From the IMG/VR virus record IMGVR_UViG_2711768062_000006: DNA of 11,449 nucleotides. One strand, given 5' to 3'. Position 1 is the stretch's first letter. Each line of letters opens with the position of its first letter. The notes under the pieces were generated by a model. The model was not told where the DNA came from and made no database searches. It saw only the letters and a program-made list of their open reading frames with translations. The DNA comes from a virus. Taxonomy: Duplodnaviria > Heunggongvirae > Uroviricota > Caudoviricetes. The position numbers and the translations under genes were made by a program. Shown one piece after another: positions 3,135 through 11,449 of the stretch.

Positions 3135-3737
3135 ATGAGCTATTTTCTGCGCAAAAAATGGATGGTAAATTTGTCCGGGTCAGGAAAAATTTTATGGGCG
3201 CTAAACATGAAAAAAGATTCGTATCCTTATTTGATTTGCATGACAGTTTCAGGGCTGATCTTTATTTTCCTTTTCTTCTGGTGGCGGGCAGATATCTACA
3301 GGGTCACGTTTCTTAATCAGAGTATATCCCACTATTACATTCTGTTTAGCATGGGAATAGCTTTTCTGTTATCTCTGTTTTGGGTTAAGAAGGGGATAGT
3401 AAAACAAAGAGGCTGGAAGAGTCTGTCAGCATACCTTAAGGTTTATGCAGGGATGTGCATATTTGCTGGATTTTTTCTGATTATACCCCTTACGACACTA
3501 ACTTATTTTTTGCCTGGAGAGACATCGTCTTATGTTGCACCGTATCGGTATACTTCCGGTAGTTCAAAAAGTTGTTCTGGAGCTGAGGTGGATGACCCCG
3601 ATCTACATGAGAATATTCGCATTTGCTATCCGTATGGCAATTATGAGTACGATAATATTATCTATGTTGAAAAGAAAATTAATATATTAGGTGCGGTAGT
3701 GACATATGCACAGACCGCGCGTGATGATACTGAATGA
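3135..3737 (+). CDS. Unrecognised integral-membrane protein (up to 200 aa): three predicted TM helices plus a ~75-aa Cys-containing C-terminal domain, in an AT-rich insert
   Basis: Long ORF in a region visibly more AT-rich than its flanks. Hydrophobic segments YLICMTVSGLIFIFLFFWW, ISHYYILFSMGIAFLLSLFWV and VYAGMCIFAGFFLIIPLTTLTYFL. Lysine/arginine-rich loops (MKKDS, KKGIVKQRGWKS) suggest N-in topology with the C-terminal domain outside. Start is uncertain: in-frame ATGs at 3135, 3162 and 3207, none with a clear Shine-Dalgarno. It is the only plus-strand gene inside the minus-strand early-left operon. Confidence 0.65.
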   Translation: MSYFLRKKWMVNLSGSGKILWALNMKKDSYPYLICMTVSGLIFIFLFFWWRADIYRVTFLNQSISHYYILFSMGIAFLLSLFWVKKGIVKQRGWKSLSAYLKVYAGMCIFAGFFLIIPLTTLTYFLPGETSSYVAPYRYTSGSSKSCSGAEVDDPDLHENIRICYPYGNYEYDNIIYVEKKINILGAVVTYAQTARDDTE

Positions 3738-6742: not shown

Positions 6743-6949
6743 TTAGTGATTCAGGCCGTTGCCGCGTCCGTCGAGAAAAACTTCCACGAGCAAGTCACGG
6801 GTATAAGTGCGCTCGATGCCGCGATGCAGATAAAGCCGTCCGCGTAAATTAGCTGATGCAGTCCAGGTACCATCTTTGTGTTTGACCAGCATTCCTGGCA
6901 TGACCGCACCGCGATTAACGGTCTGCGTTCCGTAATGTTGATGAACCAT
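6743..6949 (-). CDS. Hypothetical protein, 68 aa, at the kil position between pL and gam; identity not established
   Basis: ATG at 6949-6947 preceded by AGGAG (plus 6955-6959) and a 5-nt spacer. Protein MVHQHYGTQTVNRGAVMPGMLVKHKDGTWTASANLRGRLYLHRGIERTYTRDLLVEVFLDGRGNGLNH. I could not match it to lambda Kil from memory. Confidence 0.55.
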   Translation of the reverse strand: MVHQHYGTQTVNRGAVMPGMLVKHKDGTWTASANLRGRLYLHRGIERTYTRDLLVEVFLDGRGNGLNH

Positions 6950-7118
6950 AAAAACTCCTGCCCGTAAGCTGGGCTGCTGAACAAATGAGGGGTTGCGCAG
7001 TATCTGGCGGTGGATGGCCGCCGGTTGTCATAACTAAGCCGCCTTGTTGAAGCGACTGAGGTATGAGGTGTTGAGTTGATTTCAGCTGGTCACACCGACG
7101 TTCACGCGTCCGTTTCAC
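6915..7118 (-). CDS. Speculative short N-like ORF, 67 aa from GTG, with an arginine-rich N-terminus (MKRTRERRCDQ)
   Basis: GTG at 7118-7116 with GGGGAG 8 nt upstream. First gene-like frame after the pL-like promoter. N-terminal RTRERR resembles the arginine-rich motif of lambda N (recalled QTRRRERRAEKQAQW). It overlaps the next ORF by 35 nt and is far shorter than known N proteins. Confidence 0.25.
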   Translation of the reverse strand: MKRTRERRCDQLKSTQHLIPQSLQQGGLVMTTGGHPPPDTAQPLICSAAQLTGRSFYGSSTLRNADR

Positions 7119-7224
7119 CCCTCGCACTCCCCGGAGCCTGCTGAAATTCAAGCTGCGGATCTAAGCGGTCATCGCAACGGTGAATCAGGTGGTTGCCGTA
7201 TCGTTGTGTTGTTGCGATGAACTT

Positions 7225-7253
7225 ATTTAAAACTATAGTTGTTTTATCGTCAA
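7225..7253 (-). promoter_or_regulatory. pL-like leftward promoter with embedded operator half-sites
   Basis: On the minus strand: -35 TTGACG (plus 7248-7253), 17-bp spacer, -10 TTAAAT (plus 7225-7230). The surrounding 35 bp is nearly identical to the pR-like module at 8272-8306 and contains GTTGTT/AACAAC inverted repeats and the palindrome AACTATAGTT (7231-7240). Confidence 0.5.
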
Positions 7254-7390
7254 CAACAAAAGTTGTTTTATTGGTTGTTTTAGATATAACTGGTTGTATT
7301 TAGGATGGATTTATTTTGTGACTTGAATCGCATAGCGATAACTGAAGCGAGGTTATGGTGGTTTTTTTAACGGTGTGTGATGAGGGGAGG

Positions 7391-7419
7391 GCAAAAGAAA
7401 ACCCGGCACGGTGACCGGG
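7391..7419 (-). terminator. Intrinsic terminator after the repressor gene
   Basis: On the minus strand: CCCGG-UCACCGUG-CCGGG hairpin (plus 7402-7419) followed by UUUUCUUUUGC (plus 7391-7401), about 120 nt after the repressor stop. Confidence 0.55.
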
Positions 7420-7540
7420 ATTCTTACGCCGTTAGGTAAAGATATTATTGCGGTGGCTTAATATTACTACCTAGAGCAAAGATAGGAATTAGTTCTTTAC
7501 TGAATGAGCACAATGCCCAGTTGATAATTTTTAATTGGTA

Positions 7541-8230
7541 CTACCCATGCTTCCTATATGTCTGCGGCATGCTCCCAATAACCTTACCGAAGATGAACAC
7601 CCGGTTCATCTCGTCTTTCTCGATCGGGTCCCACGGTGAGTAGCTTTTGTTATCAGAGATGACCAGCAGCTTATCCTTCATCATTTGCAGGCGCTTTACA
7701 TGGGCTGTGTCGTCGTACAGAAACGCATAGATACCATCACCGTCGAAAGATTTAACAGTGATATCAACGAACAGCAGATCACCTGGTTCGATCGTTCCTG
7801 ACATGCTGTCACCACGCACGTTAATGATGCGGATATTTTCCGCCTTCCTACCATCGAACATGTGACGAGCATCGTCAAACGAGTACTCAACCGAGCGTAG
7901 AACTTCTACAAACTCACGGTTGATGACTCCCGGCCCAGCACTGACTTCTATATCAAGAACGTCAATCTTGAAGTATTTGGAATGGCTGACAGTTGATTGT
8001 ATTGGTTGCACTGTACTGTCTGACATATTTCCAATGCCAGAAGATAACCATTCTGCGCGCACACCCAAAGCGTTCGCGATCTCCACGATTTTAGTTGTTT
8101 GGTTAGCTTTCCCTGTTTCGATTTTCTGAATAGCAGCCTGGCTAACCCCAACCAAATCCCCAAGTGCCTTTTGTGTAAGGCCTCGCGCTAATCTGGCTTC
8201 TTTAAGTCTTTCTGAGAGTGTTGTTTTCAT
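7541..8230 (-). CDS. cI: CI-type prophage repressor, N-terminal HTH plus C-terminal S24 (LexA-like) autopeptidase; 229 aa from the MKTT start
   Basis: MKTTLSERLKEARLARGLTQKALGDLVGVSQAAIQKIETG is an XRE-type HTH. Candidate Ala-Gly cleavage site in EVSAGPG, catalytic Ser in GDSMSGT and Lys in VKRLQ. The ORF track starts at 8296, but that ATG lies inside the operator palindrome and pR. The 8230 start would give a leaderless transcript from the pRM-like promoter. Not lambda cI by sequence. Confidence 0.85.
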   Translation of the reverse strand: MKTTLSERLKEARLARGLTQKALGDLVGVSQAAIQKIETGKANQTTKIVEIANALGVRAEWLSSGIGNMSDSTVQPIQSTVSHSKYFKIDVLDIEVSAGPGVINREFVEVLRSVEYSFDDARHMFDGRKAENIRIINVRGDSMSGTIEPGDLLFVDITVKSFDGDGIYAFLYDDTAHVKRLQMMKDKLLVISDNKSYSPWDPIEKDEMNRVFIFGKVIGSMPQTYRKHG

Positions 8231-8236
8231 AGACCA

Positions 8237-8265
8237 AATGTACAACCAAGGTTTTATTTCATCAA
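8237..8265 (-). promoter_or_regulatory. pRM-like promoter for the repressor gene, predicting a leaderless mRNA
   Basis: On the minus strand: -35 TTGATG (plus 8260-8265), 17-bp spacer, -10 TACATT (plus 8237-8242). The predicted start falls at or next to the A of the ATG at 8230. Confidence 0.4.
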
Positions 8266-8271
8266 GCGAAA

Positions 8272-8296
8272 ATGGTTGTTGACTAAAAACAACCAT
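8272..8296. promoter_or_regulatory. Candidate operator: 25-bp perfect-arm palindrome ATGGTTGTT-N7-AACAACCAT overlapping the pR -35
   Basis: The 9-bp arms are exact reverse complements. Related half-sites (TGGTTGT/ACAACCA, GTTGTT/AACAAC) recur at 8242-8248, 8289-8295 and across 7238-7300. Confidence 0.5.
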
Positions 8297-8305
8297 AGTT
8301 TTAAT
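8278..8305 (+). promoter_or_regulatory. pR-like rightward promoter driving cro
   Basis: -35 TTGACT (8278-8283), 16-bp spacer, -10 TTTAAT (8300-8305), then GGAGG (8325-8329) and the cro ATG at 8335. Confidence 0.55.
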
Positions 8306-8334: not shown

Positions 8335-8565
8335 ATGAACCCAGCAATCAAAACAGCGATCAATATAGTTGGTTCACAAAAGAAATTGGGCGATGCCTGC
8401 GAAGTTTCACAGCAGGCCGTCTATAAGTGGCTTCACAACAAAGCAAAGGTATCCCCTGAACATGTCGGCAGCATTGTTACGGCTACTGGTGGAGTTGTGA
8501 AGGCGTACCAGATTCGCCCGGATCTTCCGAAGTTGTTTCCACACACCGAAAAGAACGCAGCTTAA
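8335..8565 (+). CDS. cro: Cro-like regulator of the YdaS type, 76 aa
   Basis: First rightward gene after pR with a strong GGAGG RBS. Motifs SQ..L...VSQQAVYKW...V.PE....I..ATGG.V.....RPDL fit my recollection of the YdaS-type Cro family. Not lambda Cro. Confidence 0.8.
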   Translation: MNPAIKTAINIVGSQKKLGDACEVSQQAVYKWLHNKAKVSPEHVGSIVTATGGVVKAYQIRPDLPKLFPHTEKNAA

Positions 8566-8577
8566 ATTTCCATTTCA

Positions 8578-8623
8578 CGCTCTTTAACAATAAGCAATCA
8601 ACTTAACAGACTGATTAACAGTC
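8578..8623 (+). promoter_or_regulatory. nutR-like element: boxA-like CGCTCTTTAACAA plus a boxB-like stem-loop GACTG-ATTAA-CAGTC
   Basis: 12 of the 13 nt (GCTCTTTAACAA) match the boxA consensus as I recall it. The stem-loop 18 nt downstream has a 5-bp stem and 5-nt loop, as in lambda boxB, but a different loop sequence. Position just after cro matches lambda nutR. Confidence 0.45.
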
Positions 8624-8646: not shown

Positions 8647-8805
8647 ATGCAACCAATTACATACCAACAGACTAGCGGATTTACCCCGACTGCGGTGATA
8701 AATCGTTCTCAAACAAAACAGGCGCCAGGCCACGAAAAAATCCGTGATGCCGTTCGGCCTGGTCGGCTGCAGATAATCAGGATGTTGTTGCCGCACTCAT
8801 TGTGA
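8647..8805 (+). CDS. Small ORF, 52 aa, with a strong RBS; either a real small protein or the frameshifted 5' part of the following gene
   Basis: AAGGAA (8635-8640) 6 nt before ATG 8647. MQPITYQQTSGFTPTAVINRSQTKQAPGHEKIRDAVRPGRLQIIRMLLPHSL. Its TGA stop (8803-8805) overlaps the GTG start of the next ORF as GTGA. No lambda CII similarity. Confidence 0.4.
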   Translation: MQPITYQQTSGFTPTAVINRSQTKQAPGHEKIRDAVRPGRLQIIRMLLPHSL

Positions 8806-9185
8806 ATGAGTATCGGGAGCTGGGCGGCGGCACCATCGATTTCCCTGATGATGTCAGCCGTGCACGCCAGAAGTTGTTCCGCTTCCTCGATAACAAATTC
8901 GATTCTGAAAAATACCGAAATAACCTGCGTGAACTGACCCCGGCAATTCTGGCGGTACTACCGCTGGAATATCGCGGCCACCTGGTTGAGCAGGATAGCT
9001 TCATGGCTCGGCTGGTTGAAATGGAAAAGGAACTCAGTGAGGCAAAGCAGGCGGTCATTCTCAACGCACCACGCCACCAGAAACTGAAGGAAATGAGTGA
9101 AGGTATTGTGTCGATGTTTCGCGTGGACCCGGATCTGGCTGGTCCATTAATGGCGATGGTTACCACCATGCTGGGGGCAATATGA
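8802..9185 (+). CDS. Hypothetical protein, 127 aa from a GTG start, at the cII position; possibly a YdaT-like CII-equivalent, possibly N-terminally truncated
   Basis: GTG start with no Shine-Dalgarno of its own. The frame is open and coding-like for 18 codons upstream with no start codon. Motifs EYRELGGG and LTPAILAVLP resemble what I recall of E. coli YdaT; this recollection is unverified. Confidence 0.5.
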   Translation: MNEYRELGGGTIDFPDDVSRARQKLFRFLDNKFDSEKYRNNLRELTPAILAVLPLEYRGHLVEQDSFMARLVEMEKELSEAKQAVILNAPRHQKLKEMSEGIVSMFRVDPDLAGPLMAMVTTMLGAI

Positions 9186-9271: not shown

Positions 9272-10201
9272 ATGGCAAACACTGCTGAGATATTCAATTT
9301 TCCAGTGCCGGATGTGGCACAAAAGGAGCCGCGCGTGGCAGATCTCGATGATGGTTATACGCGCATTGCAAATGAGTTGCTGGAAGTTGTAATGCTGGCC
9401 GGATTAACACAGCACCAGCTTCTGGTCTTCCTGGCTGTCATGCGCAAAACATATGGCTTTAATAAAAAACTGGATTGGGTGAGCAACGAGCAACTTTCCG
9501 AGTTAACCGGGATATTGCCGCACAAGTGTTCTGCTGCAAAAAGTGTTCTGGTAAAGCGTGGGATTTTAATTCAGAGCGGGCGGAATATCGGCATCAATAA
9601 TGTGGTCAGTGAATGGTCAACATTACCCGAATCAGGTAAGAAAAATAAAGTTTACCTGAAAGAGGTAAATTTACCTGAATCAGGTAAGAAAAGTTTACCT
9701 AAATCAGGTAAACGCCTTTACCCGAATCAGGTAAACACAAAAGACAAACTAACAAAAGACAATATAAAACCTTTTTCGTCAGAGAATTCTGGCGAATCCT
9801 CTGACCAGCCAGAAAACGATCTTCCTGTGGTGAAACCGGATGCTGCAATTCAGAGCGGCAGCAAGTGGGGGACAGCAGAAGACCTGACCGCCGCAGAGTG
9901 GATGTTTGACATGGTGAAGACCATCGCGCCATCAGCCAGAAAACCGAATTTTGCAGGGTGGGCTAACGATATCCGCCTGATGCGTGAACGTGACGGACGT
10001 AACCACCGCGACATGTGTGTACTGTTCCGCTGGGCATGCCAGGACAACTTCTGGTCCGGTAACGTGCTGAGTCCGGCCAAACTCCGCGACAAGTGGACCC
10101 AGCTCGAAATCAACCGAAACAAGCAACAGGCTGGCGTGACAGCCGGCAAACCAAAACTCGACCTGACGAACACTGACTGGATTTACGGGGTGGAGCTATG
10201 A
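9272..10201 (+). CDS. O: Replication initiator, lambda O-like, 309 aa from the second in-frame ATG; divergent N-terminal domain, lambda-like C-terminal domain
   Basis: GGGAGG precedes ATG 9272 (MANTAEIFNF...), which parallels the lambda O start MTNTAKILNF. The C-terminal ~110 aa (AEDLTAAEWMFDMVKTIAP...TNTDWIYGVEL) match recalled lambda O. The ORF-track start at 9182 gives 339 aa. Overlaps P by 4 nt (ATGA). Confidence 0.85.
   Translation: MANTAEIFNFPVPDVAQKEPRVADLDDGYTRIANELLEVVMLAGLTQHQLLVFLAVMRKTYGFNKKLDWVSNEQLSELTGILPHKCSAAKSVLVKRGILIQSGRNIGINNVVSEWSTLPESGKKNKVYLKEVNLPESGKKSLPKSGKRLYPNQVNTKDKLTKDNIKPFSSENSGESSDQPENDLPVVKPDAAIQSGSKWGTAEDLTAAEWMFDMVKTIAPSARKPNFAGWANDIRLMRERDGRNHRDMCVLFRWACQDNFWSGNVLSPAKLRDKWTQLEINRNKQQAGVTAGKPKLDLTNTDWIYGVEL
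9623..9734. repeat. Replication-origin iterons: five 17-bp palindromic repeats TTACC-N7-GGTAA inside the O gene
   Basis: Copies at 9623-9639, 9652-9668, 9671-9687, 9695-9711 and 9718-9734, followed by an A-rich tract (ACACAAAAGACAAACTAACAAAAGACAATATAAAAC). They encode the peptide repeat LPESGKK/LPKSGK in O. Architecture parallels the lambda origin, which lies inside O. Confidence 0.8.
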
Positions 10202-10899
10202 AAAACATCGCCGCACAGATGGTTAACTTTGACCGTGAGCAGATGCGCCGGATCGCCAACAACATGCCGGAACAGTACGACGAAAAGCCGCAGGTACAAC
10301 AGGTAGCGCAGATCATCAATGGTGTGTTCAGCCAGTTACTGGCAACTTTCCCGGCGAGCCTGGCTAACCGGGACCAGAACGAACTGAACGAAATCCGCCG
10401 CCAGTGGGTGCTGGCTTTCCGGGAAAACGGGATCACCACAATGGAACAGGTTAACGCAGGAATGCGCGTAGCCCGTCGGCAGAATCGACCATTCCTGCCA
10501 TCACCCGGGCAGTTTGTTGCCTGGTGCCGGGAAGAAGCATCCGTTAACGCCGGGCTGCCAAACGTCAGCGAGCTGGTTGATATGGTCTATGAGTATTGTC
10601 GGAAGCGTGGCCTGTATCCGGATGCAGAGTCTTATCCGTGGAAATCAAACGCGCACTACTGGCTGGTTACCAACCTGTACCAGAACATGCGGGCCAATGC
10701 GCTTACTGATGCGGAATTACGGCGCAAGGCTGCCGATGAACTGACTTGTATGACCGCGCGAATTAACCGTGGTGAGGCGATACCTGAACCAGTAAAACAA
10801 CTTCCTGTCATGGGCGGTAGACCTCTAAATCGTGCACAGGCTCTGGCGAAGATCGCAGAAATCAAAGCGAAGTTCGGACTGAAAGGAGCAACTGTATGA
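10198..10899 (+). CDS. P: Replication protein P (DnaB helicase loader), 233 aa
   Basis: MKNIAAQMVNFDREQMRRIANNMPEQYDEKPQVQQVAQIINGVFSQLLATFPASLANRDQNE... matches recalled lambda P almost exactly. ATGA overlaps with O upstream and ren downstream. Confidence 0.97.
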   Translation: MKNIAAQMVNFDREQMRRIANNMPEQYDEKPQVQQVAQIINGVFSQLLATFPASLANRDQNELNEIRRQWVLAFRENGITTMEQVNAGMRVARRQNRPFLPSPGQFVAWCREEASVNAGLPNVSELVDMVYEYCRKRGLYPDAESYPWKSNAHYWLVTNLYQNMRANALTDAELRRKAADELTCMTARINRGEAIPEPVKQLPVMGGRPLNRAQALAKIAEIKAKFGLKGATV

Positions 10900-11156
10900 C
10901 GGGCAAAGAGGTAATTATTCATTATCTGGAGACGCACAAGAGCTTCTGTGCGCAGGACGTTGCTGCGGCAACAGGTGTGACAGTAACCTGCATAAATCAG
11001 GCAGCAGCTAAAATGGCGCGGGCAGGAATCCTGGTCATTGATGGTAAGGTCTGGCGAACGGTGTATTACCGGTTCGCTACCAGAGAAGAACGGGAAGGAA
11101 AGGTGAGCACGAACCTGATTTTTAAGGAGTGCCGCCAGAGTGCCGCGATGAAGTGA
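10896..11156 (+). CDS. ren: Ren, C-terminally truncated (85 aa); stop codon supplied by the first bases of the inserted IS element
   Basis: MTGKEVIIHYLETHKSFCAQDVAAATGVTVTCINQAAAKMARAGILVIDGKVWRTVYYRFATREEREGKVSTNLIFKECRQSAAMK matches recalled lambda Ren (96 aa) up to ...SAAMK. The reading frame ends in the TGA at 11154-11156, which is the start of the IS-like sequence. Confidence 0.85.
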   Translation: MTGKEVIIHYLETHKSFCAQDVAAATGVTVTCINQAAAKMARAGILVIDGKVWRTVYYRFATREEREGKVSTNLIFKECRQSAAMK

Positions 11157-11449
11157 TCTTACCCAGCAATAGTGGACACGCGGCTAAGTGAGTAAACTCT
11201 CAGTCAGAGGTGACTCACATGACAAAAACAGTATCAACCAGTAAAAAACCCCGTAAACAGCATTCGCCTGAATTTCGCAGTGAAGCCCTGAAGCTTGCTG
11301 AACGCATCGGTGTTACTGCCGCAGCCCGTGAACTCAGCCTGTATGAATCACAGCTCTACAACTGGCGCAGTAAACAGCAAAATCAGCAGACGTCTTCTGA
11401 ACGTGAACTGGAGATGTCTACCGAGATTGCACGTCTCAAACGCCAGCTG
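11154..11449 (+). mobile_element. IS3-family insertion sequence (IS3-like), left end; continues beyond the window
   Basis: Begins TGATCTTACCCAGCAATAGTGGACACGCGGCTAAGTGAG, which I recall as the IS3 left inverted repeat. An orfA-type transposase gene follows. The boundary is placed where ren homology stops and may be off by a few bases. Confidence 0.8.
11219..11449 (+). CDS. insE: IS3 OrfA transposase subunit, partial (first 77 codons)
   Basis: AGAGG RBS 8 nt before ATG 11219. MTKTVSTSKKPRKQHSPEFRSEALKLAERIGVTAAARELSLYESQLYNWRSKQQNQQTSSERELEMSTEIARLKRQL matches my recollection of IS3 OrfA. No stop inside the window. Confidence 0.85.
   Translation, partial: MTKTVSTSKKPRKQHSPEFRSEALKLAERIGVTAAARELSLYESQLYNWRSKQQNQQTSSERELEMSTEIARLKRQL

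What the first reader, a model, noticed from the sequence alone, without database searches (positions are those of the whole stretch)
10896..11449. IS3-like element inserted in the 3' end of ren, supplying the stop codon and probably disrupting the prophage
Ren homology runs to ...KECRQSAAMK and ends in TGA at 11154-11156, which is the first triplet of a sequence I recognise as the IS3 left inverted repeat. An orfA-type transposase gene follows at 11219. The phage late region is therefore displaced or deleted beyond this point, so the prophage is probably cryptic, while its recombination module (int, xis, exo, bet, gam) looks fully intact.
Basis: partly seen in the sequence, partly recalled or inferred. 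Interest (0 to 1): 0.5.

Follow-up and report, generated by a model that had tools for sequence, protein, structure and literature searches.

The report
IS3 insertion truncating prophage gene ren
A copy of the common E. coli jumping gene IS3 has landed seven codons before the end of the dispensable lambda-type prophage gene ren; this is an ordinary, strain-specific event, and the sequence stops there only because the draft assembly breaks inside the repeat, not because the rest of the prophage is shown to be missing.

Summary
The ren ORF (10896-11156) is identical to an intact 93-codon allele up to base 11153. From 11154 the sequence is canonical IS3, matching K-12 IS3C at 295 of 296 bases. 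The first three IS3 bases (TGA) stop ren after codon 86. The IS3 orfA (insE) starts at 11219 and runs off the window.

The window is the tail of a 78,742-nt draft contig (GCA_001268945.1) that ends one base past the window, 297 nt into a multi-copy repeat. The abrupt end is therefore an assembly break and says nothing about loss of the late region. A simple insertion would move downstream genes by only 1,258 bp.

Relatives whose left arm is 99.7% identical, at the same ybhC/att-lambda site, carry a full nin-Q-lysis-terminase-head region. The junction occurs in none of 5,426 complete E. coli genomes. The truncated protein is on a single public contig, against 672 contigs for the parental allele, so the event is recent and strain-specific.

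Whether the prophage is cryptic cannot be decided here. One other lesion lies in the window: a 1-nt deletion that frameshifts the CII-like gene. Interest is low.

The parts
10198..10899 (+). Replication gene P (233 aa), intact. Its stop overlaps the ren start (ATGA).
   Evidence: Pfam Phage_lambda_P, E 8.8e-62. ORF list.
10896..11156 (+). Truncated ren: 86 ren codons (10896-11153) plus a TGA stop (11154-11156) contributed by IS3. The conserved C-terminal RVLAVYG is lost.
   Evidence: PHROG 142, E 4e-35. tblastn to phage Ren genes, 90-93%. 0 mismatches to the intact 93-aa allele up to 11153. Alignment with lambda Ren and other alleles. Product = WP_053275307.1, found on 1 contig.
11151..11153 (.). 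Predicted 3-bp target site (AAG), expected to be repeated after the right IS3 end if the insertion is simple. This is inferred; the second copy was not observed.
   Evidence: The intact allele reads ATGAAG|CGGGTG. IS3 makes 3-bp duplications: GAT/GAT at yagU::IS3 in L018, ATC/ACC at K-12 renD::IS3C.
11154..11449 (+). Left 296 nt of insertion sequence IS3, in the same orientation as ren and rightward early (pR-equivalent) transcription. It is cut off by the end of the contig.
   Evidence: 295/296 identical to the annotated K-12 IS3C. RefSeq annotates the homologous copies as 'IS3-like element IS3 family transposase'.
11154..11192 (+). IS3 left terminal inverted repeat (IRL).
   Evidence: Identical to the K-12 IS3C IRL. 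In K-12 the IRL and the reverse complement of the IRR match at 28 of 40 positions.
11219..11449 (+). First 77 codons of IS3 orfA (insE; 99 aa when complete). This is the HTH part of the transposase.
   Evidence: Translation identical to K-12 InsE residues 1-77. Pfam HTH_Tnp_1, E 6.4e-10.

Best explanation
A canonical IS3 element transposed into the ren gene of a lambda-like prophage integrated at the lambda attachment site next to ybhC. It inserted after ren nucleotide 258 (codon 86 of 93), in the same orientation as ren.

Shown:
- The break in homology falls exactly at the terminal base of the IS3 left inverted repeat.
- The first triplet of that repeat (TGA) is in frame, so Ren ends 7 residues early. 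It keeps its predicted winged-helix part (residues 1-66) and loses the conserved RVLxxYG tail.
- IS3 orfA begins 65 nt inside the element.
- The window ends there because the short-read assembly could not pass a multi-copy repeat.

Inferred:
- The event is recent and confined to this isolate.
- Most likely (about 0.65) it is a simple insertion with an AAG duplication and the rest of ren, the HD/SNIPE genes, nin, Q and the late genes 1.26 kb further on. In that case the direct effects would be a shortened accessory protein and some transcriptional polarity on rightward early transcription.
- The state of the late region, and hence whether the prophage is cryptic, is undetermined.
For: - Exact breakpoint and IS3 identity.
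- Ren identity.
- orfA.
- Window is the tail of a contig that ends 297 nt into IS3.
- IS3 is widespread and multi-copy: the 600-nt ren/IS3 query gave 20,030 places in 4,894 of 5,426 genomes.
- No complete genome spans the junction (0 places with at least 80% coverage), while 384 carry the same prophage arm at ybhC.
- The truncated protein is on 1 contig; the intact 93-aa allele is on 672.
- The closest relative (99.7% identical, 31 substitutions and 1 indel over 11,153 nt) has an apparently complete prophage downstream of ren.
- The att core is intact at 1331-1345.
- IS3 makes 3-bp target duplications.
Against: The right end of the IS3 copy and the remainder of ren were not found in any searchable collection. 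A simple insertion is therefore not demonstrated. IS3 copies without a target duplication exist: L001 has flanks ATG and GTT and a 1,214-nt element. Nothing here tests whether truncated Ren still works or whether the prophage is inducible.
Confidence: 0.88

Rival explanations
1. The IS3 marks a rearrangement, either an IS3-mediated adjacent deletion or recombination between two IS3 copies. The ren tail, nin region, Q and late genes are then deleted or moved elsewhere, leaving a defective remnant that runs from int to ren.
For: - The contig stops in IS3, so contiguity is unproven.
- E. coli genomes hold several IS3 copies that can recombine.
- Some IS3 copies lack target duplications (L001).
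- Lambdoid remnants with IS3 in ren exist: K-12 DLP12.
- A second lesion, the frameshift in the CII-like gene, suggests the prophage has begun to decay.
Against: - Nothing in the window indicates a deletion. The abrupt end is fully explained by repeat collapse in a draft assembly.
- The insertion is unique to one contig, and the left arm is 99.7% identical to complete prophages. That favours a young, simple event.
- int, xis, attL and the replication genes are intact.
Confidence: 0.28
2. The junction is an assembly artefact: a chimeric join of a prophage contig to IS3 reads, with no IS3 at this site in the real genome.
For: It is a draft short-read assembly. The junction is seen on one contig only and in no other genome.
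Against: The join falls precisely at the first base of the IS3 inverted repeat, and ren is perfect up to the preceding base. That is what transposition produces. A random chimera would fall at this exact base with a probability of roughly 1 in 1,258. Assemblers normally extend from unique sequence into a repeat exactly as seen here.
Confidence: 0.03
3. ren is not interrupted. The 86-codon form is a natural short allele, or ren continues in another frame.
For: None beyond the fact that NCBI names the 86-aa product simply 'protein ren'.
Against: All other alleles run 93-97 aa and share KRVL after position 86. Everything after 11153 is IS3 at 295/296 identity, so no frame can encode the ren tail.
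Confidence: 0.01

Closest known systems
Insertion sequence IS3 of E. coli K-12 (insE/insF; the copy compared is IS3C in DLP12)
   Same: 295 of 296 nt identical over the part present. Same left inverted repeat, same orfA start 65 nt in, identical first 77 InsE residues.
   Different: One substitution (G at 11353, A in K-12). Only the left 24% of the 1,258-nt element is in the window, so orfB, the frameshift site, the right repeat and the target duplication are unseen.
renD::IS3C in the K-12 cryptic prophage DLP12
   Same: The same element interrupts the same gene family (ren) in the same orientation, in a lambdoid prophage.
   Different: It is an independent event. The K-12 insertion lies after nt 93 of renD, not after nt 258. 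That prophage sits at argU rather than att-lambda and is heavily deleted (exoD and xisD are pseudogenes). Both IS ends are visible there, with flanks ATC and ACC.
Phage lambda ren (Ren, 96 aa; lets lambda escape Rex exclusion; non-essential, from established lambda genetics)
   Same: Same position overlapping the end of P. 87% identical over 86 residues.
   Different: The parental allele here is 93 aa. The copy in the window lacks the last 7 residues (10 relative to lambda). The function of this allele is untested.
Classical polar IS insertions in the lambda early rightward operon (IS1/IS2 insertions such as r14 and r32; recalled from the literature, not checked here)
   Same: An IS sits inside the rightward early (pR) transcription unit, upstream of Q, where it could reduce downstream expression.
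   Different: Those insertions were selected in the laboratory and lie in or near cII/O. Here the IS is natural, lies in a dispensable gene, and its effect on expression is unknown.

Membership tests
IS3 (IS3 family, IS3 group) | Nucleotide identity to the reference IS3 sequence | tested here: met
   295/296 identical to the K-12 element annotated 'insertion sequence:IS3C'.
IS3 (IS3 family, IS3 group) | Terminal inverted repeats beginning TG...; left repeat at the point where host homology ends | tested here: met
   The IRL at 11154-11192 is identical to the K-12 IRL. The ren homology stops at 11153. The right repeat lies outside the window.
IS3 (IS3 family, IS3 group) | orfA with an HTH domain, followed by overlapping orfB (DDE transposase) expressed by -1 frameshifting | tested here: inconclusive
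   The first 77 of 99 orfA codons are present and identical to InsE, with an HTH_Tnp_1 match at E 6.4e-10. The frameshift site and orfB lie beyond the end of the contig.
IS3 (IS3 family, IS3 group) | 3-bp direct duplication of the target | not testable with these tools
   The right junction is absent from the window and from every collection searched. The expected duplication is AAG. Other IS3 copies show GAT/GAT and ATC/ACC.
Ren (lambda ren exclusion protein family) | Sequence similarity to lambda Ren | tested here: met
   87% identity to lambda Ren. PHROG 142, E 4e-35. Annotated phage Ren genes, 90-93%. Neither Pfam nor NCBIfam gave a family match for this protein at the thresholds used.
Ren (lambda ren exclusion protein family) | Position immediately after replication gene P, with start overlapping the P stop | tested here: met
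   ATGA overlap at 10896-10899. The order O-P-ren is as in lambda.
Ren (lambda ren exclusion protein family) | Full-length product (93-97 aa) with the conserved C-terminal KRVLxxYG | tested here: not met
   The product ends at K86. All eight compared alleles continue with RVL.... It is a truncated member, not a natural short form.
Ren (lambda ren exclusion protein family) | Confers resistance to Rex exclusion | not testable with these tools
   Needs a plating assay on a Rex+ lysogen.
Cryptic (defective) prophage | Loss or inactivation of genes essential for excision, replication, late gene activation, morphogenesis or lysis | tested here: inconclusive
   Within the window, int, xis, attL, O and P are intact. 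The only lesions are ren::IS3 and a frameshift in the CII-like gene, and neither gene is essential for lytic growth in lambda. Q, the lysis genes and the structural genes lie beyond the end of the contig.

The most novel reading that the evidence does not exclude
ren, at the boundary between the replication genes and the nin/Q region, may be a recurrent landing site for IS3 in the orientation of rightward early transcription. Two independent events are seen: this isolate and K-12 DLP12. Such insertions might be favoured because they uncouple the early recombination and replication genes, which the host may find useful, from Q-dependent late and lysis genes. That would make them an early step in prophage domestication. 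Two events in the same orientation are compatible with chance, and no hotspot was tested statistically.
Probability: 0.05. Interest if true: 0.4.

Novelty: already known. Interest (0 to 1): 0.08.

Why it matters
It matters little beyond annotating this isolate. IS insertions in prophage accessory genes are routine, and the same element in the same gene has long been annotated in K-12 DLP12.

The useful lesson is methodological. A window that ends inside an insertion sequence in a draft assembly should not be read as evidence that the sequence beyond is deleted. If the insertion is simple, the prophage may still be inducible, with a shortened Ren and possibly reduced rightward early transcription reaching Q. 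If IS3 mediated a deletion, the remnant keeps intact int, xis, the Red recombination genes and O-P-ori. That question can only be settled with the remaining contigs or with long reads.

Tried and rejected
1. Looked for the junction in complete E. coli genomes. None of 5,426 has it. Apparent extensions of IS3 hits 10-24 nt into 'ren' (H1, H18) turned out to be unrelated IS3 sites, in yagU and in an integrative conjugative element (ICE), with chance flank resemblance.
2. Exact-pattern scans for the left junction and for the predicted right junction (IS3 end, 0-6 nt, ren tail) in genome contigs, metagenome contigs and viral contigs gave 0 hits in all six scans.
3. Tried to reach the neighbouring contig of the same assembly through the expected downstream gene (HD-domain protein).
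   - A homologue search and a cluster look-up gave the exact protein.
   - The contig look-ups read only the longest contigs and did not return GCA_001268945.1.
4. Checked whether the short 'partial ren' proteins in the cluster mark other IS insertions. The 56-aa form is a contig-end truncation, not an IS insertion.
5. Rfam scan of the window: no family reached its gathering score.
6. Promoter and terminator scan of 10600-11449: nothing found.
7. A hairpin enclosing the orfA ribosome-binding site (11188-11218) is predicted, but it is not better than shuffled sequence (z = -1.68). I draw no conclusion from it.
8. Literature search for the assembly accession found only an unrelated reverse-transcriptase survey.

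Full report
**What is in the sequence**

The window starts in ybhC, which sits at the window's low-coordinate end on the minus strand. It crosses the exact lambda att core GCTTTTTTATACTAA at 1331-1345. It then runs through a lambda-like prophage:
- int and xis;
- accessory genes;
- exo, bet, gam and kil;
- an S24-type repressor, a Cro-like gene and a CII-like (YdaT-domain) gene;
- O, P and ren.

The finding concerns the last 554 bases. ORF 10896-11156 is 86 codons plus TGA. Its ATG overlaps the stop of P (ATGA), the same arrangement as in lambda.

**Check of the observation**

The ORF is ren:
- PHROG 142 'Ren-like exclusion protein', E 4e-35;
- 90-93% identity to Ren genes annotated in 170 phage records;
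- 87% identity to lambda Ren.

An intact allele of 93 codons exists in many E. coli genomes. The window is identical to it, with 0 mismatches, from 10896 to 11153. The intact allele then continues CGGGTGTTGGCGGTATATGGGTGA (...K-RVLAVYG*), whereas the window continues TGATCTTACCCAGC....

From 11154 to 11449 the window equals positions 1-296 of the element annotated as IS3C in K-12 MG1655, with one substitution at 11353.

The ATG at 11219 opens 77 codons identical to K-12 InsE. They carry a transposase HTH domain (Pfam HTH_Tnp_1, E 6.4e-10).

Seven residues are lost relative to the parental allele. They include RVL, which is invariant in the eight full-length alleles I aligned. The part resembling MarR-type winged-helix regulators (residues 1-66, PHROG 1687) is untouched.

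**Why the sequence stops**

A look-up of the exact 86-aa product returned a single place: contig CXYK01000016.1 of the draft assembly GCA_001268945.1. The contig is 78,742 nt long, and the gene lies 297 nt from its end. The window is identical to the tail of that contig and stops one base before its end.

IS3 is multi-copy in E. coli. The 600-nt query, half ren and half IS3, matched 20,030 places in 4,894 of 5,426 complete genomes. A short-read assembler runs from unique sequence into such a repeat and then stops. The end of the data therefore carries no biological information about what follows.

**What probably follows**

- 384 complete genomes carry the same prophage arm next to ybhC at 80% coverage or more.
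- The closest ones are 99.6-99.7% identical over all 11,153 bases. Against strain Evo1 there are 31 substitutions and one indel.
- In Evo1, ren is followed by two leftward genes (an HD-domain protein and a DUF4041/SNIPE nuclease, there split by IS1). Then come ybcN, ninE, ybcO, rusA, ylcG, quuD (Q), a porin gene, lysis genes, terminase, portal, protease and capsid. That is a complete-looking lambdoid prophage.
- Other relatives show the same ren-HD-SNIPE-nin-Q order.

**How old the insertion is**

No complete genome contains the ren-IS3 junction. The truncated protein (WP_053275307.1) is recorded on one contig, whereas the intact 93-aa allele is on 672. Exact-pattern scans for the left junction, and for the predicted right junction, found nothing in species-representative genomes, JGI metagenomes or IMG/VR.

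The event is therefore young and private to this isolate. That fits a plain insertion better than a long history of decay, but it does not prove one.

IS3 normally duplicates 3 bp of target:
- yagU::IS3 in NCTC9064 has GAT on both sides;
- K-12 renD::IS3C has ATC and ACC;
- a shortened copy in strain 504239 has no duplication.

The prediction for a simple event here is ...GGATCA-AAG-CGGGTG.... I estimate about 0.65 for simple insertion, about 0.28 for an IS3-associated deletion or rearrangement, and a few percent for artefact.

**Consequences: what is shown and what is inferred**

Shown:
- Ren is shortened by 7 residues.
- IS3 lies in the direction of rightward early transcription.
- P, O, int, xis, exo, bet and gam have the same lengths as in the complete relative.

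Inferred from established lambda biology:
- ren is dispensable for growth, so the truncation alone cannot make a prophage defective.
- An IS inside the early rightward operon can be polar on Q expression. The size of that effect depends on the phage's antitermination system, which I could not define. There is no recognisable N gene, although there is an exact boxA downstream of cro (see 'Other things seen').

It remains possible but undecided.

**Comparison with known cases**

The element is IS3 itself. The same element interrupts renD in the K-12 cryptic prophage DLP12 in the same orientation. That insertion lies after nucleotide 93, and the prophage is at argU, so it is an independent event.

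Two events are not enough to claim a hotspot. Apparent flank similarity between this site and two other IS3 sites is weak.

Nothing about the feature departs from known behaviour of IS3 or of lambdoid prophages. Novelty is 'already known' and interest is low.

**Other things seen**

- The CII-like gene is 179 aa in relatives. In the window it carries a 1-nt deletion after 8756 (GTTCGCGCCTGG becomes GTTCGGCCTGG, not in a homopolymer run). This splits it into a 52-aa ORF and a 127-aa ORF.
- Between kil and the repressor gene (6950-7540) there is no N-like gene.
- Operator-like repeats are shared by the leftward and rightward promoter regions.
- A terminator-like hairpin follows the repressor gene.
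- An exact boxA, CGCTCTTTAACAA, lies at 8578-8590.
- Rfam found no known RNA family in the window.

Noticed in passing
window 8647-9185 (deletion after 8756): The gene in the cII position (YdaT-domain, PHROG 163 'CII-like transcriptional activator', 179 aa in relatives) is frameshifted by a 1-nt deletion: GTTCGCGCCTGG becomes GTTCGGCCTGG, not in a homopolymer run. This leaves a 52-aa ORF (8647-8805) and a 127-aa GTG ORF (8802-9185). It is the only indel against the 99.7%-identical Evo1 prophage. It could be a real second lesion or a consensus error.
   Followed up: partly
window 6950-7540, both strands: No N-like antiterminator gene lies between kil (6743-6949) and the repressor gene (7541-8296). 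The only ORF is a 78-aa TTG ORF (6915-7151, minus strand) with an arginine-rich start (KRTRERR) and no PHROG match. A terminator-like hairpin (7419-7402, minus strand) follows the repressor gene.
   Followed up: partly
window 7227-7270 and 8275-8304; 7143-7157 / 8556-8570; 7069-7081 / 8596-8608; 8578-8590: Operator and promoter sequences are shared as inverted repeats between the leftward and rightward early control regions. Two further short motifs are shared by the two early leaders. An exact rrn-type boxA (CGCTCTTTAACAA) lies downstream of cro. These look like nut-type or other antitermination signals in a phage with no obvious N.
   Followed up: partly
window 3135-3737 (+): A 200-aa ORF lies opposite in direction to int/xis and the early-left genes. 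Its sequence looks hydrophobic, as for a membrane protein (not tested). Only its C-terminal 88 residues match a PHROG of unknown function (phrog_1416, E 7e-51). It is likely a moron gene.
   Followed up: no
L004 30549-34735; L006-L016 (relatives, downstream of ren): Relatives carry two leftward genes between ren and the nin region: an HD-domain protein (515 aa) and a DUF4041/SNIPE-T5orf172 nuclease (500 aa). This looks like an anti-phage defence insert. In strain Evo1 the SNIPE gene is split by IS1.
   Followed up: no
L005 3685-5248 (K-12 MG1655 DLP12): renD of K-12 is also interrupted by IS3 (IS3C) in the same orientation, but after nt 93. The flanking triplets are ATC and ACC, an imperfect 3-bp duplication.
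   Followed up: yes
L008 5919-7200 (GCA_051053905.1): In one relative, ren lies directly next to exo. The whole block from bet through the immunity region to P is therefore deleted, an architecture reminiscent of DLP12.
   Followed up: no
window 7541-8296 (-): The repressor ORF is 251 aa from the first ATG. RefSeq annotates the same gene in relatives as 229 aa (S24 family peptidase), so the start codon is uncertain.
   Followed up: no
window 11130-11153; L001 4001-4010; L018 5000-5023: The 10-24 nt to the left of three unrelated IS3 copies resemble each other loosely (TGCCGCCA...G.GA.G). This was enough for megablast to extend past the IS end. It could be chance or a weak target preference.
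   Followed up: partly
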